A stretch of DNA of 64,000 nt from Trypanosoma brucei (lineage: Eukaryota). The position numbers and the translations under genes are program-made. Location: contig AL929603.2 in assembly GCA_000002445.1 (NCBI GenBank), positions 128,001 to 192,000 of the forward strand, read 5' to 3'. The notes beneath the pieces are model-generated. The model was not told the origin of the DNA, did no database searches, and saw only the letters and a list, made by a program, of their open reading frames with translations. Shown here piece by piece: positions 6,469-64,000 of the stretch; the stretch's first letter is position 1; the number at the start of each line of letters is the position of its first letter.

Positions 6469-6983
6469 AATTTTTTTTGAATTTTCTTCGTGCCTTCGTG
6501 GGAGTTTCCCCCCACTGGCGCGGCCATCAGCCATCACCGTAGAGCCCTGAAATGCTATCGGTCTGGCGACTGTGGCAGAGTCTCCCTTTTTCATTCATCC
6601 TAACACACTCTCTATAATTTTTGTTGTATTTCCGCATATGAACGGAATACAGCAGATGGGGCGAGAAGCCTCCCACCCTGGACTCTCCCAAAGATGCCAA
6701 TTGGCAATCCTTTTTTTTTGGAGTTCCACATCACCGGACAGCAGCATCTTAGTGCGGATGATACTGCTGATGGCACGCTGGCACGTGCCCAGGGACCGAC
6801 AAATGAAAAACGGTGTCCCAGCAAGACGCTGCTGATCCCTGTACTGTATGATGCCGTAGCCGGAGCACAGCAGTGTTCCCCATGAAAGGAACGCTGCTGG
6901 CTCTTGGCTTCCCCCGATGATACGGGGTACTGGACCCTGGCACCACGTTGAGGTGGCCGGCATCGCCAGGGTGTGAAGGAGAA
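6469..6983 (-). mobile_element. RIME (~515 bp, non-autonomous ingi derivative) inserted at the RHS hot spot
   Basis: 5' end CACCCTGGCGATGCCGGCCACCTCAACGTGGTGCCAGGG (rc at 6946..6983), 3' end ...GGCACGAAGAAAATTC + A8 (rc at 6469..6492); ingi 5' ~250 bp joined to ingi 3' ~250 bp with junction inside the 2A codons (GDVE|LQKK). Confidence 0.85.
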
Positions 6984-7500
6984 GTGAGCCGATGGCCAGT
7001 GACTTACTGATTCTGGAGTTTCCAATCACAATGTAAGGATTTGGTGCGTGTCTTAGTATTCGAGTTTCCTCAGCTGGCCAAGCGCAGAGCTTTCTTTCCA
7101 CAACATTTCACAGTCTCCAGTCCTTTCTCTGAATGAGAATGTCATTGTGAATTTAAATATTAAACTGTGAGTACGACCACTCCATTTAAGATGTTGGAAC
7201 CGTTGCTTCACCTCCTTCCCGTGCGTTCCGGCTTATGTTCAAAAGTTTCCTCAATTTTGGGGACGACATTAACTTCTTCATCTTTCCACATTATATCATC
7301 AGCACGCGTTCCATCAACAAACTTCATGCCCAGCATTTGAGTTCCATTGTCCATTATAATGTCACTCCACTTTGAATTGCATACGGAGCCATATAAACTG
7401 AAAACATTATCACCTCTTGCTTCACGTCCTCTCAGACGCTTTTCTCCCAGAATAAGTGTCTGGTGTCCTGAAGCAAAATGTTGAGTATTGTTCTTGATTA
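6984..7500 (-). pseudogene. Degenerate RHS pseudogene 5' fragment upstream of RIME (degenerate P-loop 'IVIGNSRISKS')
   Basis: ORF 6595..7101(-) 'MERKLCAWPAEETRILRHAPNPYIVIGNSRISKSLAIGSLLLHTL|AMPATSTW..'; upstream 7150..7480 translates (with stops) to 'LYGSVCNSKWSDIIMDNGTQMLGMKFVDGTRADDIMWKDEEVNVVPKIEE..' matching RHS 28384 residues ~50-110. Confidence 0.65.
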
Positions 7501-8660
7501 AAATATTTGCTTTACTTTTCTAACTAATTCGGCTTCTTAGTGTTTCCTTTTAAAGGATACAAAAGCTTTATCGCAAAGGGATTCCTATACTAAAGGACGC
7601 ACATGGTTACTCAGATAGAACAGTTATAAATCTCAAATAAAGTTCAGTAACCTTTCCTTACACATTTTTTTATCCAATGAAAATATTTCCACAGTGCTCT
7701 ACTGCAGCATTGTGGCCATTAAAAAAATAGTTTTGGCGCTGCCTCAGGTATTCACTGGCATTTCCCCTCTTTTCAACGCATGTTTACAAGCAGAGGCATG
7801 CCTCATTGCTGTCACACCTTAGCGTTATTGAATCTATTTTCATACCTCCAAGGACCATACAGCATGAGATTCTATTTTCAAATACATTAATTGATCCACG
7901 AGATTTGGTATTTTATTCATTTCATCTGACTGTTGGTTTTCCTCATTCTCTGAGTTCGCAAACACCACTGAGCTAATTCCGCGCAAATGTACACATGTAA
8001 CTTCAAGGTAATATATGTTTATCACTGTTGTATTCTTTCGTATTTCTTTTGTTGGCTGCTGGTGCCCAGTAAGTTCCTATCATAAAATATGTATCATCTT
8101 ACAAGACACAGCAATAATGGTCATGATAAAGTTTCTGAATTCCCTGTATTTAATGTTGGACGCTGGTGTGAGGAATGGATTCAAAAACAAACAAACAAAT
8201 AAACAAACTGAAGCCTCCTGTTCGTAAATGAAGAGTTTGTGTTCACATCGTTGGAGAGTGTCGGCACCAGGAGATATACTTTTCTCGCTTTGCAGTGTGT
8301 GTTTCACTACAGTTTCCGTTCGTTCCGCCATATGGGAAAATAAATTGTTTTGGATATTTGAGTCTGCGCCGCCTTCCCCACTCAAAGCACCTTGCATAAT
8401 GAGTATTATTGTAGTAAATTTTGAGTTCTCATGAGGATTTCACACTTCACACGCGCAAAAAAAAATTGTTACAATGACTCGATTACTGTTGCACACATGG
8501 AAATGGTGGCTGCGATAGAAGCTTCCCTTAATTTGTGTCATTTTCGTGAGAGTTGAGTTTTAAGCAACATTGTGCCTCCTAAACCTCGATACGCATTTTA
8601 AAAAAATGAGATTAAAAAAAAGACTCACTATTTGATACAAAATGTAAGGGAACTTGGCAT

Positions 8661-8690
8661 TTAATAATAATTATTATTATTGAACACACA
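8661..8690. repeat. (AAT)n/(ATT)n microsatellite; mirror copy at 61536..61572 is a longer pure (AAT)12
   Basis: aataataattattattatt vs aataataataataataataataataataataataa. Confidence 0.8.
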
Positions 8691-9311
8691 TTCATATGTT
8701 AATTTTTTTCCATCACCGTTAGGAACGTAATCATCACAATTTAAAGAACCACCAATACGCAAATATTTCCATACGCCACTTGACTGTCTTCGAAGCGCTG
8801 CCCAATTGGTTTTGAATGTAAGTGCAATACAAAAGAACAAAAACATTTGAGAGAAAGAATTCAGTAATAAAAAATATGGTTAAAGTTCCCCATCACCTTT
8901 CTGAAACCTTTTGAACTTTGCGCATCTGCACGCTCAAGGCAAATCAAAGTTTCTCTAACCATTGATGTTTACATTATTTCCAATCGACCATGTTTCTTGA
9001 AACAGATGTTGGAAAGAAAATACAAATAGTGATGGATGAAAACCTGAATATTAATACTGACAATAATAATGGTAATAATAATGGTAATAAAAAATAAATA
9101 GATTAATTAATTAAATTACATTCCTTCAGTGCATTGCACTTATGCAGGGATTATGACTCGTACAAACCTGTCTCATAGTTATTTATGAATTCATGACAAA
9201 CAACTCGGTAATGATGCGCCATGAAATGTTTAATCAACGAATCTTACATTCCACGTATAATACGATGCAAACCGAACAAACATCAGTCACAAAAGCGATT
9301 TGTTTAAAAAT

Positions 9312-9341
9312 GATATATATATATATATATTTTTTTTTTTT
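9312..9341. repeat. (AT)9-T11 simple repeat (mirror at ~60880..60912)
   Basis: gatatatatatatatatatttttttttttt. Confidence 0.8.
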
Positions 9342-10086
9342 GCGAGCGTGTAGAAGCAAATAAATATAACACTGTGCGCAGAGGATGAAGGGTACAAACA
9401 AATGAAACAACGATAAAAAAATTATTTACAAGATTAAAAGAAAGTGCCGTTTGAATAAAGAGAAATTAAACAAGAGGTGGTGACAAATCGTATGCTTTTA
9501 ATATACTTACTGCAGATATTTAGTTTGTAACGATTAGTATTATATAAACAGCAACACATGTGATGAAACTCAGGAATATATCAACTAAACCTCAGATTGT
9601 TCGACAGACAAGCAAAAAAAAAAAAGAAAAGAAGAATAATATGAAAAAAAAAACATCTGGTGTTAATGTCGCACAACATATTTCAACAGTTGATTCACAC
9701 TACAAATTTCCTATAAACATACGATTTAAATCACCACCTGCACATTCCCTTCCGCGTATCGTTGTTTTGACTTCAAACAGCTTACAAGTATAATTTGCTG
9801 ATGCCATCTTTACATAATAAAATGAAACTATTAAAGTTTATCACAGTCCGCAAATTACGGGTTTTAGGTTGCAGTCGTCGGTTGTTCTTCCCTCTGCATA
9901 ATGGTCTCTCATTAACATACAAATATCTCTCAACAAAAATATTCACATTAGAGAGATTAGGTGATGAATGATTTGAGTCAACTCCTTCCACTTGTAACTT
10001 CATCACGGCATGGTTGCGGCTCACAACAGAAGGAAGGGTGTTTTTACTCTTAGGTTGAATGATACCTGCAGTTCCAACATAATTCG

Positions 10087-10106
10087 ATATATATATATAT
10101 ATATAT
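10087..10106. repeat. (TA)10 microsatellite (mirror 60136..60158)
   Basis: tatatatatatatatatata. Confidence 0.8.
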
Positions 10107-12213
10107 ATTCTTTATTTCTACTTTCTGCACTTCTCCACTTTCGTGTTGTCCATACAACAAATATCTCTTTACCCGATGGTGAATGAGATGTGGTGTGCTG
10201 TTTAGAAACTGAACTACATTTTTAGCTGAGAGTGGAAAAGCTGAAAAAGTGTTTTGGTTTGAAGAGTGAGTCAGTTGAAGCATTCAGCATTTGATTAACT
10301 CATAAAACATATAATTTATATTTAACCTTCCAATACCATCGCTCGAACAGAGCAGTTTCTTGTCATAAAGACATTAACCACATGCTAAAATTTTCCACGC
10401 CACCAAACCACACTTATATAAACTCGAAAAAATAAATAATAAATAAGCGGTTGCATATATCATACCACTTCTTGCAATGTAAACCGAAAATAGTGCGTCG
10501 CGGGAGTGAGCTTGAAATTAGTAAACGAAAAGATTCCTGTATCATAAAAGTCTTTCACTATTTCATGAAGTATTTCAATCTCCAACTAAACATCATGCAA
10601 AACACCTTAAAGCCACTCCACTTTCCAATATATAAAAATCCCACCAATGTTACTTTCATGTGCCATCGCAGTGCATCCTCATGCTTTCAATTTCAGTAGT
10701 TATTCACTTCCCAAGTTCCGTAAGCATTTACTGCTAATAATGTAAGCGAAACAATTTTGGAATATGATATTCAAGTGACAGTTGTTCTTCGATTTCACAT
10801 GCATCTCCCTTCAGATGCAGCGCTGCTTTTCGTCTCTTTTTTTTTTCTCAAATAAATAAATAACATTTGATATTTTACTATTTCGAATCGGTGTGGATTT
10901 GTATAACTTAAATGTGCGGCTGTCTGTAACTTATCAGTTAGCAGCAGTGTCTAATTAATTTAAGTGTGTGAGGAGGAAATCCTTTTGTTGTTGTTGTCAA
11001 ATAAAAAGTAAATTTGAAGAAATACATAATTTACCTCAGCAGTGTTTTCTGGAAAGTCATAAACATATACGGATACGGTAAGAAAAGGAAAATAAAATGA
11101 ATGAAAGGATTTGCTCTCGCCTTCAGTTCTTCTGAGGCATCATGTTGTAAGAAAGAAAATAATATTTCCCAAAACCAGTGAAATGGTTAATACACTTTCC
11201 CATGCACATGTATCACAAATGTTAATGGGTTAATGTGGTACACAACCCTTTGCTGTGCAAGGGAATTCGGATTGTATGACATCTTCACAAAAGTTTGGCC
11301 CAAATAATTCTGAAAGGAAATGTAATAAAATAAATTATGTTATTAAAAAACCAAACAAATACAACAAGTTATAATATAATATTTTAATGAAACGAGAATA
11401 TTCAATCGCACTGTTTGAGAATATAGATATACCAGTGGCAAGTGTAAAAAAGAATCATGAGACACGTAATGTGTTGTTTTATCCTCTTCCATGTAAGAAC
11501 TTGGTGGTCAAGATGCTGCTCTGATATAATTTATTGTAAAGTCACTCTGTCATTTCTTTCAGTAAAACAAATAATAATAAGAATAATGAAATATATTCAC
11601 TATACTTTAATGGTATATAAACTTCACTTCCTCATATCATTGACAGGCATACAGTACTGCAGAATGTTGAGTGCTTTTACTTTTCGGGTGTGGTTATGAG
11701 TAAAAATTAAATGTGAATGTTGTGTTTCATGTAATAACAATAAGAACGATAGAAATAGTAATAATATTAATTCAATATATATGTGTGAATGTGTAGTCAT
11801 AAAGTTAGAAGGGCATACAATATAATGATATATTCATTTGGTATGGTTGTAATATGAATGATCATAATACAATAATTACTACGCTTACAACTAAAATACA
11901 AATTTCCATTGAGAAAAAAGCTTGTCACATATACACACACGCTCACCTTCCTAACTGTTCTTTATTCTTCACAATATATGATGGGTATAACTTAGTAAAA
12001 TACGAAGCACTTAAATAACCGTAATGAAATCCTTGTATTTCTCGTATTTAAGATAGTGTAACATACAATACCATCCATGTGAATTGTTACTGGTATCTGT
12101 CCGAATAATGGTGTCTACAGTGAGCAAACTACTCGAACGGGCTGTTAAATTTAATAACGTGTTCTTAGCAATAAGTGGTTACAATTATACAAAGTGAAGC
12201 AATGGGTCACATA

Positions 12214-15200
12214 TTAACGGATATGCACCCTCTTTTTTCTCAGTTCAACATAAACATCAAACCAGCCATACACGTTCCTGAGATCAACCCAAGAAAGACA
12301 TGGCAATTCCAAAAGACTCCTGAATCCTTCTCTGAGCCTTCTGACATCATGGCTCTGACTGAGATGCAATTTTTTAATTGATTTTATTCTCCCAAGTGGT
12401 GTAATATCATTAAGATTTTTACAATAAGAAAGATTGAGCTCCTCAATGGTATGGGGTGGTTGAATTTCCCTGAGGTCTTCATCTGTAATGAGAGAATCCA
12501 TAAGGTTAAGAATGCGTAACCTCGGAAGAGTGAAAAGTGCACTAAACCCCTGCGTTAGCTCGTCGCATTCCCCTATATGCAACTCCTCCAGTGTCTTGAT
12601 ATTAGCAAGACATGAAGCATCGGTCATATCACACGATTCAAGGTTGAGTGTGACGAGGGATTTGCATCTGCTGATATAATATCCACCGTCACGCGTCGTA
12701 ACACTGGTGGATTCCAAGTTGAGCACACGAAGTCGTGGTAATTCGCTTAGTGCTTCCCAGCCTGAAGTTATGCGGTGACATCCGCTCAGATTCAATTCCT
12801 CCAGTGCCGTAAGGTTTGATATACTAGATATGTCTGTTAGTTTAAAATTGTAGCGTAGGTTGAGTGACGTAATGAATCGGGACAGACAAATTTCATCAAG
12901 TGTGTTATCGCTAATGTCAGATAAACCCAGATCCAGCGATCTAAGCCGTGGCAGTTTCCCAAGTGTCCAAGCTCCTTCCAGGGTATCACCGCAATCCCGC
13001 AATGACAATTCCTCAAGGGATGTGATGTTGGAGAGGGGTGTTGCGTCTGTTAACTCCTCGCGCGTTTCAATATTAAGCCTCACGAGAGATTTGCTCGTTC
13101 CAATAGATTCAACAGATATATCACTACCTCTCGCATTTCGCAGATGGAGAAAACGCAACCGTGACAGTGTACCAAGGGCATTCAGTCCCTTTAGGCCGTC
13201 TGAGTACTTCCTAACTATCAGCTCCTCCAGTGATTGAATCTCATACACCACCGTAACATCTGACAACTTCTCACACCGGAAAAACTGCAGTTTCACCAGC
13301 TTTTTGCAACTGCTGAGGCAAGCTATATCTTTAGCGGTGATGTTAGTATCAGATAGAATTGCTACACGTAGTAGAGGCAGCTTTCCGAGCGACTCCCAGC
13401 CTTTTCGTATTCCATTGCAAAAGTTAACATTCAGTTCCTCCAGTGTCGATAAGGAAGATAATACTGATATATCGGTTACCCATTTGCAATGTGATAAGTT
13501 GAGTGACTGCAGCGATTTTGATTCGGAAATATTTTTAGTTACATCATCATTGATATCCGTATATTTCAGATTCAGTACTCGAAGACGCGGCAGACAGGAA
13601 AATGACAGTACATCATATATTCCACACACAGAATCAAGTACCAGTTCCTCCAGCGTCGCAATGTTAGAGAGAGCTTTCACAGATATGAATCCCATTGACC
13701 TCTCAAGATTCAGTTTCACAAGTGACTTACTATTCCCAAGGATGGAACATTGTTGTGCATCACTGTCTCCCATGTAACATTCCTTCATGCTCAGGATACG
13801 TACCTTGGGAAGCTTTCCAAGAGTTTCAATACCTTTTCTGATGTTATGGCAACAATCAAGGTTCAACTCCTCAAGCATAGTAATGGTAGAAAGTGCTGTG
13901 ACGTCTGTTATATCTTTGCAAAACGCAAGGTTGAGTGTATTCAAAGACTTGCACTCGCTAACGTGCTGTATGTTTTCATCATTAATGCGTGTATTCGACA
14001 GTGTGGCCACACGCAGTTGGTGAAGTGTGCCAAATACATTCCAACCGGATGTTACATTACAGCAGTTGTCAATGTTGAGTTCCTCCAATGCTGTAAGGGA
14101 AGCTATTGCAGAAATAGATGTTATTTTCTTGCAATGCGAAAGATTTAATGATACAAGTGGGCTTGAGCATGTGCAGATATTCTCAAGGGAATTATCATCA
14201 ACTTGTGTCCGTCCCAAATCCAGTACACGAAGCTGCAGTAGCCTGCCCAGTGTTCCCATTCCAGAGGTTACTTTGTCACAGTAGTGGAGATTCAGTTCCT
14301 CAAGTGTAACAAGGTTTGAGAGAGGCGTGACACCACCGAACCCTTTGCAGTTCTCAAGACTGAGCCTTACAAATGAGTTACCATTCCCTAGTGAACCAAT
14401 AACTGAATCTTCCAACTGTACACCCTTTATGTTCAACACACAAAGCCGTGGCAACTCTCCAAGAACGCTCAGCCCTTTTCTGATGTTTGAACAACTATCA
14501 AGATTCAACTCCTCAAGCGTAGTGATGTTAGAGAGAGTTGTAACATCAAGTAACTTATTGCAGAAAGAAAGATCAAGCGTAACAAGGTTTTTGCACTTGC
14601 TGAAATGGGATATGTCTCTATCAGTAATATGTGTATTCGAGAGGATTGCCACATGTAGCTGCTGAAGTTTTTCAATTGCTTCCCATCCTGCATTTATCCT
14701 AATACAGTTGCTCAGATTCAGTTCATTCAATGCTTCGAGGCTTGAAATATGGGACACATTTGTCATTTTCCAACAATGGGAAAGGTTGAGGGACACCACT
14801 GTCTGCGATAGGCATAAACTTCTGAGAGACTCATTGTCGGTATTTGTGCCAGACAGGTCCAACATTTTAAGCTGTGGCAGGTTTCCGAGACATCCAATTC
14901 CTGCGTCAATACCCGTGCAGCCGTGAAGGCTTAGTTTTTCCAGAGTCAAAATGTTGGCGAGTGCTTCCACATTACTCAGTCCCGTGAAACTCTCCAGAGT
15001 TAACTGTAAAAGGGATTTTGAGGCACCAATACCAATAAAGTCAAGGGACGAGATGTGTACCTCCTTTACGTTAAGCACACGCAGGTATGGCAGTGTACCA
15101 AGGCAACCCACACCACTAATGATGTCAGCACATTTTTGAATATTCAGCTCCTCGAGTGTAACAATGCTGGATAAGAGTGTCATATCACCAAAGCCTGCGC

Positions 15201-16395: not shown

Positions 16396-16479
16396 TGTAG
16401 TTCCCGTTTCCGATTCCTTGAGGTGCTGAGTGTTGAGGAAATGCTTTTTCTTTTTTAATAATAGAACTAAGCGATGAAT

Positions 16480-16530
16480 CAAACGAGGGGGGGAAGTGTT
16501 ATAAGGAAGTAATTGAGGTGCATGCCAAAA
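16480..16530 (-). promoter_or_regulatory. Putative trans-splice acceptor region (polypyrimidine tract + AG) for LRRP
   Basis: Mirror of 53721..53763 'cttccttataacacttccccccctcgtttgattcatcgcttAG' ~80 nt upstream of ATG; typical kinetoplastid SL-addition context. Confidence 0.3.
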
Positions 16531-53763: not shown

Positions 53764-53844
53764 CATCGCTTAGCTCTATTATTAAAAAAGAAAAAGCATT
53801 TCCTCAACACTCAGCACCTCAAGGAATCGGAAACGGGAACTACA

Positions 53845-56800
53845 ATGTCAGGAAACCAAGGAAGAAAGCGACAGCGCAGCTCATCACCTGAGCAGTCAGA
53901 AGCTTTAAAGGAACCATCAACTACTGAACAAAATAAACTCACCACCATTACAATCACCGAAGAGACGCGTGACGCCAGTAATGATGAAACTGTGGTGTCG
54001 TTACTGAATGAGCATGAGAAATTGATTAAACAAACGACACGGCTGGAAAGCAGTGTGAAGGCACTTAGGTGTTTCATGAGTAATCTCACAGCTATGAGTG
54101 GCGAAAGGCAAGGTGGTGTGTGTGATGACACCGAATGCATACATAGAGTAACGTTATATAATGCTGCTGATAATGCCTTCAGTGACGAAGGACTATATGA
54201 AGGTGCTCTTTCCTCACTCTGTGGCCGCATTCAAGCTAAGAAATTAACCATCACGTTATCAAAAGGTTGGAAATTTAACTTAGAAGGAGTCAGTAAGCTA
54301 AAACAGTTGGAAGAGTTACGCATTGAATATCCGCGGGGCAAACTTGTGAATATGATATCTTTGAATAACCTTGATATGTTGAAAAGGCTTTGTCTCAGGA
54401 GCAACAATATTGACAACAATGATATTCACTGCATATTCAGTGTTGGAACACTGGAGGAGTTGGCTATTACTGACACCATGCAACTGACAAATATCAGAGG
54501 AATCTCTCGCTTAACTAACCTAAAGTGTCTTGAGTTAAATTCCACAGATATTGATGATAGCTGTATTGGGGAAATAAGTGCATGTGTTAAACTGTCCAAA
54601 CTGAGTGTATCTGAATGCAACAATATCACGGATGCAACCCCAATTTCACAACTTGCAGCGCTTGAAGAGTTGAATGTAAACAGCTGTTACCACATAACGA
54701 AGGGAATAGGAACACTTGGCATGTTGTTACGATTGCGTATGCTTGACTTGAGTGGTGTACCTGTGGAAGATAATTGTCTGAAGGATTTGTGTGACTGTGG
54801 ATCGCTTGAAAGGCTGAACCTTTCTTATTGTATTCAGCTGACAGATATCAATCCACTCTCCAGCGCCACTGCTATTGAGGAATTGAACCTTAACGGTTGT
54901 CGCCGAATAACACGAGGGATAGGCGTTGTGTGGGCATTACCAAAGCTCCGTGTATTGCACATGAAGGATGTGCAGTTGGAAGATTCAGTTATTGGTTCAC
55001 TAGGGAATGGTAACTCATTTGTAAGGCTCAGTCTTGAGAATTGCGCAGGCTTTGGTGATATGACACTCTTATCCAGCATTGTTACACTCGAGGAGCTGAA
55101 TATTCAAAAATGTGCTGACATCATTAGTGGTGTGGGTTGCCTTGGTACACTACCATACCTGCGTGTGCTTAACGTAAAGGAGGTACACATCTCGTCCCTT
55201 GACTTTACTGGTATTGGTGCCTCAAAATCCCTTTTACAGTTAACTCTGGAGAGTATCACGGGACTGATTGATGTGGAAGCACTCGCCAACATTTTGACTC
55301 TGGAAAAACTAAGCCTTCACGGCTGCACGGGTATTGACGCAGGAATTGGATGTCTCGGAAACCTGCCACAGCTTAAAATGTTGGACCTGTCTGGCACAAA
55401 TACCGACAATGAGTCTCTCAGAAGTTTATGCCTATCACAGACAATGGTGTCCCTCAACCTTTCCCATTGTTGGAAAATGACAAATGTGTCCCATATTTCA
55501 AGCCTCGAGGCATTGAATGAACTGAATTTGAACAACTGTTTTGGAATAAATGCAGGATGGGAAGCAATTGAAAAACTTCAGCAGCTACATGTGGCAATCC
55601 TCTCGAATACACATATTACTGATAGAGACATATCCCATTTCAGCAAGTGCAAAAACCTTGTTACGCTTGATCTTTCTTTCTGCAATAAGTTACTTGATGT
55701 TACAACTCTCTCTAACATCACTACGCTTGAGGAGTTGAATCTTGATAGTTGTTCAAACATCAGAAAAGGGCTGAGCGTTCTTGGAGAGTTGCCACGGCTT
55801 TGTGTGCTGAACATAAAGGGTGTAGAGTTGGAAGATTCAGTTATTGGTTCACTAGGGAATGGTAACTCATTTGTAAGGCTCAGTCTTGAGCATTGCAAAG
55901 GTTTCGGTGATGTCACGCCTCTCTCAAACCTTGTTACACTTGAGGAACTGAATCTCCACTACTGTGACAAAGTAACCTCTGGAATGGGAACACTGGGCAG
56001 GCTACTGCAGCTTCGTGTACTGGATTTGGGACGGACACAAGTTGATAATAATTCCCTTGAGAATATCTGCACAAGCTCAATCCCACTTGTGTTATTAAAT
56101 CTTTCGCATTGCAAGAAAATAACATCTATTTCTGCAATAGCTTCCCTTACAGCATTGGAGGAACTCAACATTGACAACTGCTGTAATGTAACATCCGGTT
56201 GGAATGTATTTGGCACACTTCACCAACTGCGTGTGGCCACACTGTCGAATACACGCATTAATGATGAAAACGTACGGTACGTTAGCGAGTGCAAGTCTTT
56301 GAATACACTCAACCTTGCGTTTTGCAAAGATATAACAGACGTCACAGCACTTTCTAAAATTACTATGCTTGAGGAGTTGAACCTTGATTGTTGCCATAAC
56401 ATCAGAAAAGGTATTGAAACTCTTGGAAAGCTTCCCAAGGCACGTATCCTAAGCATGAAGGAATGTTACATGGGAGACAGTGATGCGCAACAATGTTCCA
56501 TCCTTGGGAATAGTAAGTCACTTGTGAAACTGAATCTTGAGAGGTCAATGGGATTCATATCTGTGAAAGCTCTCTCTAACATTGCGACGCTGGAGGAACT
56601 GGTACTTGATCATGCACGGGAAGTATGTTGCATACCGTCATTTTCCTGTCTGCCGCGTCTTCGAGTACTGAATCTGAAATATACGGATATCAATGGTGAT
56701 GTAACTAAAAATATTTCCGAATCAAAATCGCTGCGATTACTCAACTTATCACATTGTAAATGGGTAACTGATATATCAGTATTATCTTCCCTATCGACAC

Positions 56801-58029
56801 TGGAAGAGCTGAATGTTAGCTCCTGCTATGGAATAAAAAAGGGTTGGGAGTCGCTCGGAAAGCTGCCTCTACTACGTGTAGCAATTCTATCTGATACTAA
56901 CATCACCGCTAAAGATATAGCTTGCCTCAGCAGTTGCAAAACACTTGTGAAACTGCAGTTTTCTTGGTGTGAGGAGTTGTCAGATGTTACGGTGGTGTAT
57001 GAGATTCAATCACTGGAGGAGCTGATAGTTAAGAAGTACTCAGACGGCCTAAAGGGACTAAATGCCCTTGGTACACTTCCACGGTTGCGTTTTCTCCATC
57101 TGCGAAATGTGAGAGGTAGTGATATATCTGTTGAATCTATTGGAACGAGCAAATCTCTCGTGAGGCTTAATATTGAAATGCGCGGGGAGTTAACAGACAT
57201 AACACCCCTCTCCAACATCACATCCCTTGAGGAATTGTCATTGTGGGAATGCCGTGATACCCTGGAAGGAGCTTGGACACTTGAGAGGTTACCACGGCTT
57301 AGATCGCTGGATCTGGGTTTATCTGACATTAGCGATAGCACACTTTATTATATTTGTCTGTCCCGATTCATTACGTCACTCAACCTAACCTCCAGTTGGA
57401 AACTAACAGACATATCTGGTATATCAAAGCTTACGGCGCTGGAGGAATTGAATCTGAGAGGATGTCACCGCATAACTTCAGGCTGGGAAGCACTAAGCGA
57501 ATTACCACGACTTCGTGTGCTCAACTTGGAATCCACCAGTGTTACGACGCGTGACGGTGGATATTATATCAGCAGATGCAAATCCCTCGTCACACTGAAT
57601 ATTCAATTGAGTGATATGACCGATGCTTCATGTCTTGCTAATATCAAGACACTGGAGGAGTTGCATATAGGGGAATGCGACGAGCTAACGCAGGGGTTTA
57701 GTGCACTTTTCACTCTTCCGAGGTTACGCATTCTTAACCTTATGGGTTCTCTCATTACAGATGAAGATCTCAGAGAAATTCAACCACCCCATACCATTGA
57801 GGAGCTCAATCTTTCTTATTGTAAAAATCTTAATGATATTACACCACTTGGGAGAATAAAATCAATTAAAAAATTGCATCTCAGTCAGAGCCATGATGTC
57901 AGAAGGCTCAGAGAAGGATTCAGGAGTCTTTTGGAATTGCCATGTCTTTCTTGGGTTGATCTCAGGAACGTGTATGGCTGGTTTGATGTTTATGTTGAAC
58001 TGAGAAAAAGAAGGGTACATATCCGTTAA
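53845..58029 (+). CDS. Leucine-rich repeat protein (LRRP) paralog, ~1394 aa, ~96-97% identical to 12214..16395(-)
   Basis: Same architecture; ATG at 53845 (MSGNQGRKRQRSS); differences from left copy clustered in patches. Confidence 0.8.
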   Translation: MSGNQGRKRQRSSSPEQSEALKEPSTTEQNKLTTITITEETRDASNDETVVSLLNEHEKLIKQTTRLESSVKALRCFMSNLTAMSGERQGGVCDDTECIHRVTLYNAADNAFSDEGLYEGALSSLCGRIQAKKLTITLSKGWKFNLEGVSKLKQLEELRIEYPRGKLVNMISLNNLDMLKRLCLRSNNIDNNDIHCIFSVGTLEELAITDTMQLTNIRGISRLTNLKCLELNSTDIDDSCIGEISACVKLSKLSVSECNNITDATPISQLAALEELNVNSCYHITKGIGTLGMLLRLRMLDLSGVPVEDNCLKDLCDCGSLERLNLSYCIQLTDINPLSSATAIEELNLNGCRRITRGIGVVWALPKLRVLHMKDVQLEDSVIGSLGNGNSFVRLSLENCAGFGDMTLLSSIVTLEELNIQKCADIISGVGCLGTLPYLRVLNVKEVHISSLDFTGIGASKSLLQLTLESITGLIDVEALANILTLEKLSLHGCTGIDAGIGCLGNLPQLKMLDLSGTNTDNESLRSLCLSQTMVSLNLSHCWKMTNVSHISSLEALNELNLNNCFGINAGWEAIEKLQQLHVAILSNTHITDRDISHFSKCKNLVTLDLSFCNKLLDVTTLSNITTLEELNLDSCSNIRKGLSVLGELPRLCVLNIKGVELEDSVIGSLGNGNSFVRLSLEHCKGFGDVTPLSNLVTLEELNLHYCDKVTSGMGTLGRLLQLRVLDLGRTQVDNNSLENICTSSIPLVLLNLSHCKKITSISAIASLTALEELNIDNCCNVTSGWNVFGTLHQLRVATLSNTRINDENVRYVSECKSLNTLNLAFCKDITDVTALSKITMLEELNLDCCHNIRKGIETLGKLPKARILSMKECYMGDSDAQQCSILGNSKSLVKLNLERSMGFISVKALSNIATLEELVLDHAREVCCIPSFSCLPRLRVLNLKYTDINGDVTKNISESKSLRLLNLSHCKWVTDISVLSSLSTLEELNVSSCYGIKKGWESLGKLPLLRVAILSDTNITAKDIACLSSCKTLVKLQFSWCEELSDVTVVYEIQSLEELIVKKYSDGLKGLNALGTLPRLRFLHLRNVRGSDISVESIGTSKSLVRLNIEMRGELTDITPLSNITSLEELSLWECRDTLEGAWTLERLPRLRSLDLGLSDISDSTLYYICLSRFITSLNLTSSWKLTDISGISKLTALEELNLRGCHRITSGWEALSELPRLRVLNLESTSVTTRDGGYYISRCKSLVTLNIQLSDMTDASCLANIKTLEELHIGECDELTQGFSALFTLPRLRILNLMGSLITDEDLREIQPPHTIEELNLSYCKNLNDITPLGRIKSIKKLHLSQSHDVRRLREGFRSLLELPCLSWVDLRNVYGWFDVYVELRKRRVHIR

Positions 58030-61000
58030 TATGTGACCCATTGCTTCACTTTGTATAATTGTAACCACTTATTGCTAAGAACACGTTATTAAATTTAACA
58101 GCCCGCTCGAGTAGTTTGCTCACTGTAGACACCATTATTCGGACAGATACCAGTAACAATTCACATGGATGATATTGTATGTTACACTACCTTAAATACG
58201 AGAAATACGAGGATTTCATTACAGTTATTTGAGTGTTTCGTATTTTACTAAGTCATACCAATCATATATTGTGAAGAATAAAGAACAGTTAGGAAAGTGT
58301 GTGTATGTATGCACAAGGCTTTTTTCTCAATGGAAATTTATATTTTAGTTGTAAGCGTAGTAATTATTGTATTATTCCCGTTCATATTACAACTATACCA
58401 AATGAACATATCATTATTTTATATGCCCTTCTAACTTTATGACTACACATCCACACACATATATATTGAATTATTATTACTATTTCTATCGTTCTTATTG
58501 TTATTACATGAAACACAACATTCACATTTAATTTTTACTCATAACCACACCCGAAAAGTAAAAGCACTCAACATTCTACAGTACTGTATGCCTGTCAATG
58601 ATATGAGGAAGTGAAGTTTATATACCATTAAAGTATGGTGAATATATCTCATTATTCTTATTATTATTTGTTTTACTGAAAGAAATGACAGAGTGACTTT
58701 ACAATTAATTATATCAGAGCAGCATCTTGTGCACCAAGTTCTTACATGGGAGAGGATAATACAACACATTACGTGTCTCGTGATTCTTTTTTACACTTGC
58801 CACTGGTGTATCTACATTCTCAAACAGTGCGATTGAATGTTCTCTTTTCATTAAAATATTATATTATAACTTGTTGTATTTGTTTGGTTTTGTAATAACA
58901 TAATTTATTTTATTACATTTCCTTTCAGAATTATTTGTGCCTAATATTTGTGAAGATGTCATACAATCTGAATTCCCTTGCACAGCAAAGGGTTGTGTAC
59001 CACATTAACCCATTAACATTTGTGCTACATGTGCATGGGAAAGTGTATTAAACATTTCACTGGTTTTGGGAAATATTATTTTCTTTCTTACAACATGATG
59101 CCTCAGTAGAACTGAAGGCGAGAGCAGATCCTTTCATTCATTTTATTTTCCTTTTCTCACCGTATCCGTATATGTTTATGACTTTCCAGAAAACACTGCT
59201 GAGGTAAATTATGTATTTCTTCATATTTACTTTTTATTTGACAATAACGAGCAAAGGATTTCCTCCTCACACACTTAAATTAATTAGACACTGCTGTTAG
59301 CTGATAAGTTACAGACAGCCGCACATTTAAGTTACACAAATCCACACCGATTCGAAATAGTAAAATATCAAATGTTATGTATTTATTTATTTAAGAAAAA
59401 AAAAAGAGACGAAAAGAAGCGCTGCATCTGAAGCAAGATGCATGTGAAATCGAAGAACAACTGTCACTTGAATATCATATCCCCAAATTGTTTCGCTTAC
59501 ATTATTAGCAGTAAATGCTTACGGAACTTGGGAAGTGAATAACTACTGAAATTAGAAGCATGAGGACGCACTGCGATGGCACATGAGAGAAACATTAGTG
59601 GGATTTTTATATATTGGAAAGTGGAGTGGCTTTAAGGTGTTTTACATGATGTTTAGTTGGAGATTGAAATACTTCAGAAAGTAGTGAAAGACTGTTATGA
59701 TACAGGAATCTTTTCGTTTACTAATTTCAAGCTCACTCCCGCGATGCACTATTTTCGGTTTACATTGCAAGAAGTGGTATGATATTTGCAACCGCTTATT
59801 TATTATTTATTTTTTCGAGTTTATATAAGTGTGGTTTGGTGGCGTGGAAAATTTTAGCATATGGTTAATGTCTTTGTGACAAGCAACTGCTCTGTTCGAG
59901 CGATGGTATTGGAAGGTTAAATATTAATTATATGTTTTATGAGTTATCAAATGCTGAATGCCACAACTGACTCGCTCTTCAAACAAAAACACTTTCTCAG
60001 CTTTTCCACTCTCAGCTAAAAATGTAGTTCAGTTTCTAAACAGCACACCACATCTCATTCACCATCGGGTAAAGAGATATTTGTTGTATGGTCAACACGA
60101 AAGTGGAGAAGTGCAGAAAGTATAAATAAAGAATATATATATATATATATCGAATTATGTTGGAACTGCAGGTATCATTCAACCTAAGAGCAAAAACACC
60201 TTTCCTTCTGTTGTGAGCCGCAACCATGCCGTGATGAAGTTACAAGTGGAAGGAATTGACTCAAATCATTCATCACCTAATATCTGTAATGTGAATATTT
60301 TTGTTGAGAGATATTTGTATGTTAATGAGAGACCATTATGCAGAGGGAAGAACAGCCGACGACTGCAACCTAAAACCCGTAATTTGCGGACTGTAATAAA
60401 CTTTAATAGTTTCATTTTATTATGTAAAGATGGCATCAGCAAATTATACTTGTAAGCTGTTTGAAGTCAAAACAACGATACGCGGAAGGGAATGTGCAGG
60501 TGGTGATTTAAATCGTATGTTTATGAGAAATTTGTATTGTGAATCAACTGTTGAAATATGTTGTGCGACATTAACACCAGATGTTTTTTTTTTCATATTA
60601 TTCTTCTTTTCTTTTTTTTGCTTGTCTGTCGAACAATCTGAGGTTTAGTTGATATATTCCTGAGTTTCATCACATGTGTTGCTGTTTATATAATACTAAT
60701 CGTTACAAACTAAATATCTGCAGTAAGTATAAAAACATACGATTTATTGCTACCTCTTGTTTAATTTCTCTTTATTCAAACGGCACTTTCTTTTAATCTT
60801 GTAAATAATTTTTTTATCGTTGTTTTATTTGTTTGCACACTTAATCCTCTGCGCACGCTGCAGCATTTATTTGCTTCTACATGCTCGCAAAAATATATAT
60901 ATATATATATAGATTATTTTTAAACAAATCGCTTTTGTGACTGATGTTTCTCCGGTTTGCATCGTATTATACGTGGAATGTAAGATTCGTTGATTAAACA

Positions 61001-61532
61001 TTTCATGGCGCATCATTATCGAGTTTTTTGTTATGAACCCATAATTAATCATGAGACAGGTTTGTACGAGTCATACTCCCTGCATAAATGCAATGCACTG
61101 AAGGAATGTAATTTTATTTATTTATTTATTACTACCATTATTATTGTCAGTATTAATATTCAGGTTTTCATCCATCACTATTTTATTATTTATATTTTCT
61201 TTCCAACATCTGTTTCAAGAAACATGGTCGATTGGAAATAATGTAAACATCAATGGTTAGAGAAACTTTGATTTGCTTTGACCGTGCAGATGCACACAGT
61301 TCAAAAGGTTTCAGAAAGGTGATGGGGAAGTTTAACCATATTTTTTATTACTGAATTATTTCTATAAAATGCTTTTTTTCTTTTGTATTGCACTTACATT
61401 CAAAACCAATTGGCCAGCGCTTTGAAGGCAGTCAAGTGGCGTATGGAAATATTTGCGTATTGGCGTTTTTTTAACGTGTGATGATTACGTTCCTAACGGT
61501 GATGGAAAAAAGTAACATATGAATGTGTGTTC

Positions 61533-61571
<39 letters not shown>

Positions 61572-62789
61572 TAAATGCCAAGTTCTCTTACTTTCTGTAT
61601 CAAATAGTGAGTCCTTTTTTTAATCTCATTTTTTCAAATGCGTATCGAGGTTTAGGAGGCACAATGTTGCTTAAAACTCAACTCTCACGAAAATGACACA
61701 AATTAAGGGAAGCTTCTATCGCAGCCACCATTTCCATGTGTGCAACAGTAAGCGAGTCATTGTAACAATTTTTTTTTGCGCGTGTGAAGTGTGAAATCCT
61801 CATGAGAACTCAAAATTTACCACAATAATACTCATTATGCAATGTGCTTTGAGTGGGGAGGGCGGCGCAGACTCAAATATCCAAAACAATTTATTTTCCC
61901 ATATGGCTGAGCGAACGGAAACTGTAGTGAAACACACACTGCAAAGCGAGAAAAGTATATCTCCTGGTGCCGACACTCTCCAACGATGTGAACCCAAAAC
62001 CCTTCATTTACGAACAGGAGGCTTCAGTTTGTTTATTTGTTTGTTTGTTTTTGAATCCATTCCTCACATCAGCGTCCAACATTAAATACAGGGAATTCAG
62101 AACCTTTATCATGACCATTATTGTTGTGTCTTGTAAGATGATACATATTTTATGATAGGAACTTACTGGGCACCAGCAGTCAACAAAAGAAATACGAAAG
62201 AACACAACAGTGATAAACATATATTACCTTGAAGTTACATGTGTACGTTTGCACGGAATTAGCTCAGTGATGTTTGCGAACTCAGAGAATGAGGAAAAGC
62301 GACAGTCAGATGAAATGAATAAAATACCAAATGTCGTGCATTCCTTGGAGGCATGAAAATAGATTCAATAACGCTAAGGCGTGACACAAATGAGGCATGC
62401 GTTTATCAACATCCGTTAAAAAGAGGGGAAATGTCAGTGAATACCTGAGGTAGCGCCAAAACTATTTTTTTTAATGGCCACAAAATGCTGCAGTAGAGCA
62501 GTGAGGAAATAATTTCATTGGATAGAAAAATGTGTAAGGAAAGGTTATTAAAATTATTTGAGATTTATAACTGTTCTATCTGAGTAACCATGTGCGTCCT
62601 TTAGTATAGGAATCCCTTTGCGATAAAGCTTCTATATTCTTTAAAAGGAAACGGTAAGAAGTTACATTAGCTAAAAAAGTAAAACAAATATTTTAATCAA
62701 GAACAATATTCAATATTTTGCTTCAGGACAAAAAAACACTTTTACTGGAAGAAAAGCGTCTGAGGGAACGTGAAGCAAGAGGTGATAAT

Positions 62790-63210
62790 GTTTTCAGTTT
62801 ATATAGCTCCGTATGCAATGCAAAGTGAAGTGACATTATAATGGACAACGAAACTCAAATGCTGGGCATGAAGTTTGTTGATGGAACGCGTGCTGATGAT
62901 ATAATGTGGAAAGATGAAGAAGTTAATGTCGTCCCCAAAATTGAGGAAGCTGTTGAGCATAAGCCGGAACGCACGGGAAGAAGTTGAAGCAATGGTTCCA
63001 ACATCTCAAATGGAGTGGTCGTACTCACAGTTTAATATTTAAATTCACAATGACATTCTCATTCAGAGAAAGGACTGGAGACTGTGAAATGTTGTGGAAA
63101 GAAGGCTCTGCGCTTGGCCAGCTGAGGAAACTCGAATACTAAGACACGCACCAAATCCTTACATTGTGATTGGAAACTCCAGAATCAGTAAGTCACTGGC
63201 CACCGGCTCA
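62790..63210 (+). pseudogene. Degenerate RHS pseudogene 5' fragment (mirror of 6984..7500) upstream of ingi-3
   Basis: 'LYSSVCNAK*SDIIMDNETQMLGMKFVDGTRADDIMWKDEEVNVVPKIEEAVEHKPERT' ~ RHS 28384 residues 50-110; 'IVIGNSRISKSLATGSLLLHTL' then ingi 5' end. Confidence 0.65.
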
Positions 63211-64000
63211 CTTCTCCTTCACACCCTGGCGATGCCGGCCACCTCAACGTGGTGCCAGGGTCCAGTACCCCGTATCATCGGGGGAAGCCAAGAGCCAGCA
63301 GCGTTCCTTTCATGGGGAACACTGCTGTGCTCCGGCTACGGCATCATACAGCACAGGGATCAGCAGCGTCTTGCTGGGACACCGTTTTTCATTTGTCGGT
63401 CCCTGGCCACGTGCCAGCGTGCCATCAGCAGTATATCATCCGCACTAAGATGCTGCTGTCCGGTGATGTGGAAGAGAATCCCGGCTCGTCGTTGCGCGGG
63501 ATGCAGTGGAACTGCGCCGGGCTATCTCAAGGAAAGAGATTAGCACTCCACAAAACCCTTGTTGATGAGCGGATCGCCTTTTGTCTGTTGAGCGAGACAA
63601 GGATGACGCCTGGAGAGGCGGCTTGCTTTAGCGTTGCTGGCTACCAACATCACGGAATAGCTCGTAACTGCAAAGGAGGTGGTGTATCAATACTAGTGAG
63701 GGAGGACCTACCAGTCGAGACCGGTATGGCCGTTGTTGGTCGCATTGAAAAAGTGCATGCAACAATTCACCTTGCACGTGGAACGGCGCTGACTGTCACG
63801 TCGGCATACATCCCACCAAAACACACCTTCACGGCAACTGACATAGATACGCTTCTGACAACTGACGGTGCCCAGCTCATCGGTGCAGACGCTAATGCAC
63901 ACGCGTTGGCATGGGATCGCGCGAGCCCACCAAATACCAAGGGTGAAACCCTCACACAGTGGTGCATTGACAACCAGTTTCTGGTCTGCAACACTGGTGA
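63211..64000 (+). mobile_element. ingi element 5' part (ingi-3), continues beyond window; 2A variant DVEENPGS (63464..63487)
   Basis: CACCCTGGCGATGCCGGCCACCTCAACGTGGTGCCAGGG at 63211; endonuclease ORF 'GMQWNCAGLSQGKRLALHKTLVDERIAFCLLSETRMT...' to window end; ccc ggc TCG instead of ccc ggc CCG. Confidence 0.85.

What the first reader, a model, noticed from the sequence alone, without database searches (positions are those of the whole stretch)
6724..63470. Giant inverted repeat: two ~16-kb arms, each carrying an outward-pointing LRRP gene, around a 24.8-kb RHS/ingi core
Arms 6724..22727 and 47515..63470 are reverse complements of each other, about 97-98% identical by eye. Each arm ends in an RHS pseudogene fused to the first ~250 bp of an ingi-type element. 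On the left that element is a RIME; on the right it is an ingi. The LRRP genes are transcribed away from the axis at ~35121.

Minus-strand units on the left and plus-strand units on the right therefore flank a core whose genes run RHS(+), RHS(+), RHS::ingi(+) and then ingi::RHS(-). That implies two divergent strand-switch regions at about 16.5-23 kb and 46-53.8 kb, and one convergent region at about 38-39 kb. All three fall inside a single 57-kb symmetric structure.

The arms are close but not identical. They differ in microsatellite lengths, indels and patchy LRRP divergence. That argues for a real inverted segmental duplication that has since diverged, rather than a perfect assembly mirror. 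A structure like this can extrude hairpins or cruciforms and drive isochromosome-like rearrangements.
Basis: seen in the sequence. Interest (0 to 1): 0.65.

Follow-up and report, generated by a model that had tools for sequence, protein, structure and literature searches.

The report
Inverted LRRP repeat units, T. brucei chr1
Two 16-kb copies of a repeat unit carrying a leucine-rich-repeat gene lie in opposite orientation around a 24.8-kb block of RHS genes and ingi retroelements on Trypanosoma brucei chromosome 1; the repeat is real, but it is an ordinary product of recombination in a known, highly repetitive and copy-number-variable region.

Summary
The inverted repeat is real. Window 6724-22711 is the reverse complement of 63473-47517: 16,064 aligned columns, 95.3% identity, 571 substitutions and 47 indels. 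The unique core is 24,805 bp.

The window is T. b. brucei TREU927 chromosome 1, in the RHS/LRRP/ingi region. Each arm carries an intact LRRP gene (XP_846402.1 and XP_846409.1, 92.4% aa identity) transcribed outward. Each arm ends in an RHS fragment interrupted at the RHS insertion hot spot, by a RIME on the left and an ingi on the right.

It is not a one-off duplication that then diverged. The arms belong to a multi-copy LRRP-unit family: a third chr1 LRRP lies left of the window, and two paralogous units are on T. equiperdum chr1. Over the outer 9.5 kb all copies differ by 4-6% and the nearest relative switches every few hundred bp. Differences are strongly clustered, which indicates gene conversion. 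Only the inner 6 kb shows the arms as clear sisters (2.5% against 7.4%).

Other junctions in the window lie at ingi/RIME ends that lack matching target-site duplications. GC- and GT-skew flip inside each arm, about 2.7-3.2 kb from its inner edge.

Cruciform extrusion across a 24.8-kb spacer is implausible; inversion of the core by homologous recombination is the realistic outcome. Interest is low to moderate.

The parts
6724..22711 (.). Left arm of the inverted repeat (LRRP unit U1, with the unit oriented on the minus strand)
   Evidence: reverse complement of 63473-47517, 95.3% identity over 16,064 columns.
47517..63473 (.). Right arm of the inverted repeat (LRRP unit U2, oriented on the plus strand)
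   Evidence: A paralogous T. equiperdum unit (L002) is contiguous across the inner edge, to window 45343.
22712..47516 (.). Unique 24,805-bp RHS/ingi core (the spacer); it is not symmetric about the repeat axis
12214..16560 (-). Intact LRRP gene of 1448 aa, identical to XP_846402.1/CAB95333.1 of T. b. brucei TREU927 chromosome 1
   Evidence: LRR Pfam families; 100% identity to P0001.
53680..58029 (+). Intact LRRP gene of 1449 aa, identical to XP_846409.1/CAB95344.1; 92.4% aa identity to the left copy, dN/dS 0.52
6955..7429 (-). RHS N-terminal pseudogene fragment at the outer end of the left arm, interrupted at the RHS hot spot
   Evidence: tblastn; ORF 6595-7101 reads from the RHS P-loop region into the RIME.
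6471..6974 (-). RIME (ingi positions 1-230 plus 4940-5189) with an intact 12-bp target-site duplication TTCTCCTTCACA. Only its 5' half (6724-6974) lies inside the arm.
62748..63240 (+). RHS N-terminal pseudogene fragment at the outer end of the right arm
63242..64000 (+). 5' part of an ingi element inserted at the same RHS hot spot with the same 5' flank; cut by the window end. Arm homology stops at 63473, where RIME and ingi sequences part.
19500..20300 (.). Putative divergent strand-switch point inside the left arm. GC skew flips from - to + near 20.0 kb, and the + strand becomes GT-rich from 19.5 kb towards the core.
   Evidence: inference using the GT-rich coding-strand rule of PMC5579346. 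No chromatin or RNA data.
49930..50730 (.). Mirror-image putative divergent strand-switch point inside the right arm
   Evidence: inference.
23277..25022 (+). Frameshifted RHS pseudogene, the first core gene, 566 bp from the left arm/core junction
28384..30411 (+). Intact RHS5a gene of 675 aa (XP_846406.1/CAB95337.1/AAL14356.1)
31460..38609 (+). RHS N-part (31460-32343), ingi (32433-37625, frameshifted) and RHS C-part (37727-38609). The ingi flanks do not match each other, so it is a chimera.
39278..39789 (-). RIME directly downstream of the minus-strand ingi; its 3' flank has no matching target-site duplication, marking a breakpoint at the convergent point
39804..46089 (-). ingi (39804-44996, TSD TTTTGTTATACA) fused in frame to an RHS N-part (44998-46089), giving a 743-aa RHS::endonuclease ORF at 43858-46089

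Best explanation
The two arms are oppositely oriented copies of a multi-copy module of about 16-19 kb. The module lies in the RHS/LRRP/ingi-rich, copy-number-variable region of T. brucei TREU927 chromosome 1.

The module reads: [RHS-ward flank | divergent strand-switch region | LRRP gene | AT-rich spacer | RHS fragment hit by an ingi/RIME at the RHS hot spot].

The inverted arrangement arose by duplication with inversion. Homologous recombination among the abundant dispersed RHS genes and ingi/RIME elements that bound the units most likely mediated it (inferred). Since then the copies have exchanged sequence patchily by gene conversion, both with each other and with other LRRP units. This explains the mosaic divergence of 0-9%.

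The structure is a by-product of repeat-family dynamics, not a device with its own function. Each arm supplies an LRRP gene and, by inference, its own bidirectional Pol II start region. One side drives the LRRP outward. The other drives inward, into the RHS/ingi core, where the two inward units converge at about 39 kb.

Because transcription leaves each arm in both directions, no single normal transcript should contain both arms. A long hairpin RNA is therefore not expected.

The realistic mechanical consequences are inter-arm gene conversion and occasional homologous recombination that would flip the 24.8-kb core. Cruciform extrusion is not a realistic outcome.
For: Shown:
- The inverted repeat is real and diverged.
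- The window is TREU927 chromosome 1, and the arm LRRPs are XP_846402.1 and XP_846409.1.
- A third chr1 LRRP (XP_846398.1) and the chr2 LRRPs are 89-92% aa identical to both arm copies.
- Two paralogous units on T. equiperdum chr1 (L001, L002) align to both arms at 92-95%.
- A four-way alignment of the shared 9.5 kb gives pairwise divergences of 4.2-6.1%, with the nearest neighbour switching between 400-bp windows. Examples: L-E2 2.5% against L-R 8.0%, and L-E2 0.3% against L-R 6.1%.
- The inner 6.2 kb shows the arms as sisters: 2.48% against 7.4-7.5% to E2.
- Differences are over-dispersed: index 6.36 against 0.95 simulated (maximum 1.31 in 1000 simulations). The longest identical tract is 698 bp against a simulated maximum of 293 bp.
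- Retroelement-bounded junctions: the left RIME has an intact 12-bp TSD, the core ingi(+) has mismatched flanks, and the RIME at 39278-39789 lacks a TSD.
- L002 is contiguous across the right arm/core junction, so the RHS(-)/LRRP(+) head-to-head layout is a shared ancestral configuration and 22711 is the true breakpoint.
- GC-skew and GT-richness flip inside each arm. GT-rich coding-strand elements direct Pol II initiation in T. brucei (PMC5579346).

Literature: RHS and LRRP genes on chr1 are highly copy-number-polymorphic between strains (PMC2481433).
Against: - No orthologous locus from a second strain could be retrieved, so conservation of this particular inverted pair is untested.
- T. equiperdum has no annotated orthologue of either arm's LRRP. 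That fits copy-number polymorphism but leaves the pair seen in one assembly only.
- The recombination mechanism is inferred from junction anatomy. The inner breakpoint at 22711/47517 lies in anonymous AT-rich DNA with no element end, so its origin is not explained.
- The strand-switch positions rest on composition and ORF orientation only.
- The orientation of the third unit (U0), left of the window, is inferred and was not seen.
Confidence: 0.8

Rival explanations
1. A single, simple inverted segmental duplication of 16 kb that has since diverged only by point mutation and small indels.
For: The arms are each other's closest relatives overall: 4.19% over the outer 9.5 kb and clearly so over the inner 6.2 kb, 2.48% against 7.4%. 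Both homology edges are sharp.
Against: Divergence is far from uniform: 0-9% per window, dispersion index 6.4, and a 698-bp identical tract. In several windows each arm is much closer to a paralogous unit than to the other arm. The coding sequence (4.28%) is no more conserved than the outer non-coding DNA (4.47%), while the inner non-coding DNA is at 2.49%. This does not fit clock-like decay.
Confidence: 0.1
2. An assembly artefact, in which a repeat was mis-joined or mirrored in the reference.
For: The region is highly repetitive. No independent assembly of the orthologous locus could be examined.
Against: The arms differ at 754 alignment columns, carry distinct intact ORFs and have different outer elements, a RIME against an ingi. 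Sequence across the right junction is contiguous in an independent T. equiperdum assembly of a paralogous unit. From my own knowledge, TREU927 chromosome 1 is a finished clone-by-clone Sanger sequence, and 4.7% divergence makes the arms easy to tell apart in reads.
Confidence: 0.04
3. A selected functional palindrome. The inverted repeat would be maintained for a purpose, such as a hairpin-RNA/siRNA source like the T. brucei long inverted repeats of Tschudi et al. 2012, or a cruciform-forming element.
For: [quoted passage not shown] The inner 6 kb of the arms is kept more similar than the coding sequence.
Against: Arm identity is 95%, not >=99%. The spacer is 24.8 kb, whereas the loci in Table 3 of that paper span about 3.6-12 kb in total. 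This locus is absent from their genome-wide list of inverted repeats. Transcription inferred from ORFs and skew leaves each arm in both directions, so no transcript should contain both arms. Patchy identity is explained by conversion without invoking selection.
Confidence: 0.05

Closest known systems
The RHS/LRRP/ingi 'repetitive region' of T. brucei chromosome I (the RHS clusters of Bringaud et al. 2002 and the chromosome I sequence of Hall et al. 2003; both recalled from memory, neither paper could be read here)
   Same: Same chromosome and the same genes: RHS5a (AAL14356.1) and the LRRPs CAB95333.1/CAB95344.1. RHS pseudogenes are interrupted by RIME/ingi at one hot spot with 12-bp TSDs. The region is known to vary in copy number between strains (PMC2481433).
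   Different: I could not confirm that those papers explicitly describe this 16-kb inverted pair or its mosaic divergence. What may be new here is the measurement, not the locus.
The long inverted repeats IR1-IR7 of T. brucei (Tschudi et al. 2012, PMC3447711)
   Same: Kilobase-scale inverted repeats in megabase chromosomes of the same genome.
   Different: Those have arms of 0.4-10 kb that are >=99% identical, lie within loci spanning about 3.6-12 kb, and produce siRNAs. None is on chr1. This one has 16-kb arms at 95.3% identity and a 24.8-kb spacer. siRNA output is unknown.
Large palindromes and inverted segmental duplications homogenised by arm-to-arm gene conversion, such as the human Y-chromosome ampliconic palindromes (from my own knowledge)
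   Same: Gene-bearing arms tens of kb long around a unique spacer, with tracts of near-identity consistent with inter-arm conversion.
   Different: The Y palindromes are >99.9% identical along the whole arm. Here conversion is patchy and also involves third-party paralogues, so the arms stay about 5% apart.
Inverted-repeat-driven rearrangement in Leishmania (linear amplicons with inverted duplications; cited in PMC11739655, refs 74-75, seen)
   Same: A kinetoplastid genome in which dispersed inverted repeats are substrates for recombination.
   Different: No amplicon or rearrangement product is shown here. From my own knowledge, the Leishmania repeats are short (hundreds of bp) and near-identical.

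Membership tests
Long inverted repeat / inverted segmental duplication | Two segments that are reverse complements of each other well beyond chance, separated by unique sequence | tested here: met
   16,064 columns, 95.3% identity, spacer 24,805 bp.
Long inverted repeat / inverted segmental duplication | The arms are each other's closest relatives along their whole length (a single duplication event) | tested here: not met
   in the outer 9.5 kb the nearest neighbour switches among the other arm, E1 and E2; the criterion is met only in the inner 6.2 kb.
T. brucei RHS cluster (retrotransposon hot spot region) | RHS genes or pseudogenes with RHS_N and RHSP P-loop domains | tested here: met
   (PF20445, PF07999), (RHS5a).
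T. brucei RHS cluster (retrotransposon hot spot region) | RIME/ingi inserted at the same relative position in RHS, with a 12-bp target-site duplication | tested here: met
   TTCTCCTTCACA flanks the left RIME, the right ingi has the same 5' flank, and TTTTGTTATACA flanks ingi(-).
T. brucei siRNA-producing long inverted repeats (Tschudi 2012) | Essentially identical arms (>=99%) | tested here: not met
   95.3% against Table 3 of PMC3447711.
T. brucei siRNA-producing long inverted repeats (Tschudi 2012) | A compact locus in which arms plus spacer span about 3.6-12 kb | tested here: not met
   The span here is 56.7 kb with a 24.8-kb spacer. The spans in the paper come from its Table 3.
T. brucei siRNA-producing long inverted repeats (Tschudi 2012) | AGO1-bound 22-25 nt small RNAs from the repeat | not testable with these tools
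   No small-RNA data available.
Cruciform- or hairpin-prone palindrome | A short or absent spacer between near-identical arms | tested here: not met
   The spacer is 24,805 bp and identity is 95%. By contrast, the separate palindrome at 1-6213 has a spacer of about 67 bp.
Assembly mirror or collapsed-repeat artefact | Identical arms, or arms that cannot be told apart from a copy-paste of one sequence | tested here: not met
   754 differing columns, distinct ORFs, and a RIME against an ingi at the outer ends.
Assembly mirror or collapsed-repeat artefact | No reads spanning the arm/core junctions | not testable with these tools
   No read data. The only indirect support is L002, which is contiguous across the right junction in a paralogous unit.
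Divergent Pol II strand-switch / transcription start region of T. brucei | Genes on opposite strands pointing away from the region | tested here: met
   LRRP(-) against RHS(+) on the left, and RHS(-) against LRRP(+) on the right.
Divergent Pol II strand-switch / transcription start region of T. brucei | GT-rich sequence on the coding strand of each outgoing unit (PMC5579346) | tested here: inconclusive
   clear GT-rich blocks on the core-ward side (0.58-0.65 at 19.5-20.9 kb, mirrored on the right) but only weak blocks on the LRRP-ward side. GC skew flips at about 20.0 and 50.0 kb.
Divergent Pol II strand-switch / transcription start region of T. brucei | H2A.Z/H2B.V/H4K10ac enrichment, RPB9 occupancy and 5'-triphosphate transcripts | not testable with these tools
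   No ChIP or RNA data available.

The most novel reading that the evidence does not exclude
The left arm may be shared by two giant inverted repeats, giving a + / - / + run of LRRP units: U0 left of the window, U1 (the left arm) and U2 (the right arm). Each unit would carry its own bidirectional Pol II start region, kept similar by arm-to-arm conversion (the inner 6 kb is at 2.5%, against 7.4% to a paralogue).

This alternating array could be a recurrent recombination engine that flips the 24.8-kb RHS/ingi core. Together with the short-spacer palindrome at about 3.1 kb, it could generate the well-known size polymorphism of chromosome 1. Flipping the core would change which RHS/ingi copies lie downstream of which start region.
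Probability: 0.1. Interest if true: 0.5.

Novelty: new member of a known kind. Interest (0 to 1): 0.25.

Why it matters
The finding documents, with numbers, how one block of the T. brucei chromosome 1 RHS/LRRP region is built. Whole modules of about 16 kb containing a strand-switch region are reused in both orientations. Several junctions lie at ingi/RIME elements. Gene conversion among paralogues produces a mosaic.

This is useful for read mapping: the 754 arm-discriminating positions allow arm-specific assignment of ChIP and RNA data. It also helps interpret copy-number and size polymorphism of chromosome 1, and it warns against treating the region as unique sequence.

It does not reveal a new kind of element or mechanism. 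The one systematic survey of T. brucei inverted repeats that I could read (PMC3447711) lists only near-identical repeats of up to 10 kb and omits this one. Diverged long inverted repeats are therefore probably under-counted in that genome.

Tried and rejected
1. Retrieving the orthologous locus from another strain, to test conservation and the junctions. TREU927 proteins are not indexed in the look-up of encoding contigs. ORFs next to or across the left junction are not on record either. The T. equiperdum loci L001 and L002 turned out to be paralogous units. The LRRP of L001 is 99.3% identical to XP_846398.1, the unit left of the window. No T. equiperdum orthologue of either arm's LRRP or of RHS5a appears in the protein clusters.
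2. The last homology search, with the RHS C-part ORF, returned only short Logan contigs of at most 2.3 kb, which are useless for structure.
3. The chromosome I paper (Hall 2003) and the RHS paper (Bringaud 2002) are not held. Full-text searches for LRRP/RHS/inverted repeat found no description of this repeat.
4. I looked for a hidden gene or RNA in the 6-kb region upstream of the LRRP in each arm. There are no tRNAs, no Rfam hits, no notable tandem repeats and no convincing ORF. I did not scan its ORF fragments against Pfam.
5. I considered that the 6.3-kb insertion in L001 was a retroelement with a 17-bp TSD. Inspection shows only 7-9 bp of microhomology and a GRESAG4-like fragment, so I rejected this.
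6. I rejected the hairpin-RNA idea on geometry: the inferred transcription leaves each arm in both directions.
7. I could not determine the relative orientation of L001 and L002 in the T. equiperdum record.

Full report

Yes. A self-comparison of the window finds one long reverse-complement match. Window 6724-22711 aligns to 63473-47517 over 16,064 columns at 95.3% identity. There are 571 mismatches (371 transitions, 200 transversions) and 183 gap columns in 47 indel runs. The spacer is 24,805 bp.

The homology edges are sharp. The inner edge falls in anonymous AT-rich DNA. The outer edge falls exactly where RIME and ingi sequences part company.

**2. What is in it?**

The window is Trypanosoma brucei brucei TREU927 chromosome 1. 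The left-arm LRRP ORF (12214-16560, minus strand, 1448 aa) is 100% identical to XP_846402.1/CAB95333.1. The right-arm ORF (53680-58029, plus strand, 1449 aa) is identical to XP_846409.1/CAB95344.1. Both are recorded on a contig of 1,064,672 bp. Both ORFs are intact, full of LRR domains and 92.4% identical in protein. Their dN/dS is 0.52.

Each arm ends distally in a short RHS N-terminal fragment, 7429-6955 on the left and 62748-63240 on the right. Each fragment is cut at the RHS insertion hot spot:
- On the left the element is a RIME (6471-6974, ingi positions 1-230 plus 4940-5189) with an intact 12-bp target-site duplication, TTCTCCTTCACA.
- On the right it is an ingi with the same 5' flank, which runs off the window.

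The core contains, in order:
- a frameshifted RHS pseudogene (23277-25022, +);
- the intact RHS5a gene (28384-30411, +; XP_846406.1);
- an RHS N-part, ingi and RHS C-part (31460-38609, +);
- a RIME (39278-39789, -);
- an ingi fused in frame to an RHS N-part (39804-46089, -).

The window has no tRNA, no Rfam family and almost no tandem repeats.

**3. The arms are family members, not a lone duplicated pair**

TREU927 chromosome 1 has a third LRRP, XP_846398.1, that is not encoded in the window. I infer that it lies to the left (see section 6). Chromosome 2 has more. All of these are 89-92% identical in protein to both arm copies, barely less than the arms are to each other.

Two LRRP loci from T. 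equiperdum chromosome 1 (GCA_003543875.1; L001 and L002) align to both arms at 92-95%. This is far below the roughly 99% expected of orthologues; mean gene identity between T. b. brucei and T. b. gambiense is 99.2% (PMC2854126). They are therefore paralogous units. The LRRP of L001 is 99.3% identical to XP_846398.1.

I aligned the 9.5 kb shared by both arms (L, R) and the two T. equiperdum units (E1 from L001, E2 from L002). Pairwise divergences were:

| Pair | Divergence |
|---|---|
| L-R | 4.19% |
| L-E1 | 4.95% |
| L-E2 | 5.57% |
| R-E1 | 5.43% |
| R-E2 | 6.12% |
| E1-E2 | 5.61% |

The nearest neighbour changes from window to window. One 400-bp window has L-E2 at 2.5% against L-R at 8.0%. 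Another has L-E2 at 0.3% against L-R at 6.1%.

In the inner 6.2 kb, between the LRRP and the core, the arms are clear sisters: 2.48% against 7.4-7.5% to E2. Blocks of 0-1% alternate there with blocks of 6-8%.

Differences between the arms are strongly clustered:
- The index of dispersion in 100-column bins is 6.36, against 0.95 expected (maximum 1.31 in 1000 simulations).
- The longest identical tract is 698 bp, against a simulated maximum of 293 bp.

Coding DNA (4.28%) is no better conserved than the outer non-coding DNA (4.47%). The inner non-coding DNA is at 2.49%. This pattern indicates patchy gene conversion, both between the arms and with other family members. It does not fit clock-like decay after one event.

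**4. How the arrangement was probably built (inferred)**

Junction anatomy points to recombination at dispersed repeats.
- The core ingi(+) has a 5' flank from one RHS gene and a 3' flank from another. That 3' flank is the same RHS C-part that follows the left-arm RIME (98.9% identity). This ingi is therefore a recombinant of two elements.
- The minus-strand ingi has a proper target-site duplication (TTTTGTTATACA). It is followed directly by a RIME whose far flank does not match. This places a breakpoint at about 39.28 kb, exactly at the convergent point.
- Both core ingi copies share the same frameshift (ORF overlaps at 33565-33571 and 43858-43864) and are 98.0% identical.
- L002 is contiguous across the right arm/core junction as far as window 45343. 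The head-to-head RHS(-)/LRRP(+) layout on the right is therefore a shared, older configuration. The left inner edge at 22711 is the true breakpoint, but it shows no element end and remains unexplained.
- L002 also has an RHS downstream of its LRRP that reads through the P-loop region with no RIME or ingi. This suggests that it keeps an uninterrupted hot spot.

**5. Transcription geometry (inferred)**

ORF orientation gives LRRP(-)/RHS(+) on the left and RHS(-)/LRRP(+) on the right. GC skew flips from negative to positive at about 20.0 kb and again at about 50.0 kb. It flips from positive to negative at about 3.1 kb and across 39-45 kb.

The plus strand becomes GT-rich from 19.5 kb towards the core, and the right arm mirrors this. 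GT-rich elements on the coding strand drive directional Pol II initiation in T. brucei (PMC5579346).

The divergent switch points therefore lie inside the arms, about 2.7-3.2 kb from their inner edges. Each arm looks like a complete module with a two-way start region. With this geometry, no normal transcript contains both arms, so a long hairpin RNA is not expected. Antisense ingi RNA could arise only by read-through at the convergent point near 39 kb. ingi/RHS sequences are already known to be the main siRNA source (52% of reads; PMC3447711).

**6. Symmetry and neighbours**

The 57-kb structure is not symmetric apart from its arms. The core's own inverted ingi pair (32433-37625 against 44996-39804) is centred near 38.7 kb, not at the 35.1-kb axis.

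Window 1-~6213 forms a separate palindrome of 98.3% identity with a spacer of only about 67 bp (3074-3140). Its left arm is cut by the window start.

Window 1-1379 duplicates 37899-39276, which lies in the RHS C-part and downstream flank that follow an ingi(+). L001 shows LRRP(+), then 5.2 kb, then RHS fragment::ingi(+). From these I infer that a third unit (U0, carrying XP_846398.1) lies on the plus strand just left of the window. The left arm would then be flanked by inverted partners on both sides.

**7. Comparison with what is known**

This is the RHS/LRRP/ingi 'repetitive region' of chromosome I. Its gene families are known to vary in copy number between strains (PMC2481433). RHS5a of the original RHS paper lies in the core. 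I could not read the 2002 and 2003 papers that describe the region. I therefore cannot say whether this inverted pair was explicitly noted.

The only systematic survey of T. brucei inverted repeats that I could read lists seven. All are at least 99% identical, at most 10 kb long and compact, and none is on chromosome 1 (PMC3447711). This repeat fails those criteria on identity and spacing.

Cruciform or hairpin extrusion needs short spacers. From established knowledge, a 24.8-kb spacer and 5% divergence make it implausible here. Gene conversion and occasional recombination-mediated inversion of the core are the realistic outcomes.

**8. Verdict**

It is not a single simple duplication, not a symmetric unit and not a likely cruciform. 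It is a new, measured example of a known kind of architecture in a well-known repetitive region. Interest is low to moderate.

The main open points are whether this particular pair is conserved in other strains, and direct read support for the junctions. Neither could be tested with the tools available.

Noticed in passing
window 1-6213 (centre ~3107; spacer ~3074-3140): A separate near-perfect palindrome of 98.3% identity, with arms of at least 3.07 kb and a spacer of only about 67 bp. It is formed by two truncated RHS N-terminal pseudogenes meeting tail to tail (2249-3068 on the plus strand, 3944-3146 on the minus strand). Its left arm is cut by the window start, so it probably extends further. 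It is far more hairpin-prone than the 16-kb repeat.
   Followed up: partly
window 32433-37625 (+) and 39804-44996 (-): Two convergent ingi elements, 98.0% identical and 2.2 kb apart. They share the same frameshift (ORF overlaps at 33565-33571 and 43858-43864). Read-through at the convergent point would give antisense ingi RNA.
   Followed up: partly
window 32397-32467 and 37590-37660: The core ingi(+) has non-matching flanks. Its 5' flank comes from the RHS at 31460-32343. Its 3' flank is the same RHS C-part that follows the left-arm RIME (98.9% identity). This marks recombination between two ingi copies.
   Followed up: yes
window 39278-39804: A RIME(-) sits directly after the target-site duplication (TTTTGTTATACA) of the minus-strand ingi. 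It has no matching duplication on its other side. A rearrangement breakpoint therefore coincides with the convergent strand-switch point.
   Followed up: yes
window 43858-46089 (-): A 743-aa ORF fuses an RHS N-terminus (DUF7578, RHS_N and the start of the P-loop domain) in frame to the ingi endonuclease domain. This exact protein is not in the protein collection.
   Followed up: no
window 1-1379, 4815-6720 and 37372-39276: Three copies of the same segment (ingi 3' end, RHS C-part and downstream flank) at 98.3-99.5% identity, two on the plus strand and one on the minus strand. They are much more similar to each other than the LRRP arms are.
   Followed up: partly
window 16561-22711 and 47517-53679: The non-coding 6 kb between each LRRP and the core is less diverged between the arms (2.49%) than the LRRP coding sequence (4.28%). 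It includes tracts of 0-1% and has no recognisable gene, tRNA or Rfam RNA. The cause could be recent conversion or constraint on a start region.
   Followed up: partly
L001 1829-8144 (T. equiperdum CM010672.1): A 6.3-kb insertion upstream of the LRRP, at the point matching window ~17364-17380 (left arm) / 52860-52876 (right arm). It carries a fragment with an adenylate-cyclase receptor-type domain (PF25495). Only 7-9 bp of microhomology (ACACAAA) is present at the junctions, not a target-site duplication.
   Followed up: partly
L002 17600-19700 (T. equiperdum CM010672.1): The RHS pseudogene downstream of this paralogous LRRP reads through the P-loop region with no RIME or ingi. This looks like an unoccupied RHS hot spot and contrasts with both arms of the window and with L001.
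   Followed up: partly
window 61533-61571: An (AAT)13 microsatellite that is 21 bp longer than its counterpart in the left arm (near 8681). It is one of several length differences in simple-sequence and AT-rich runs between the arms.
   Followed up: yes
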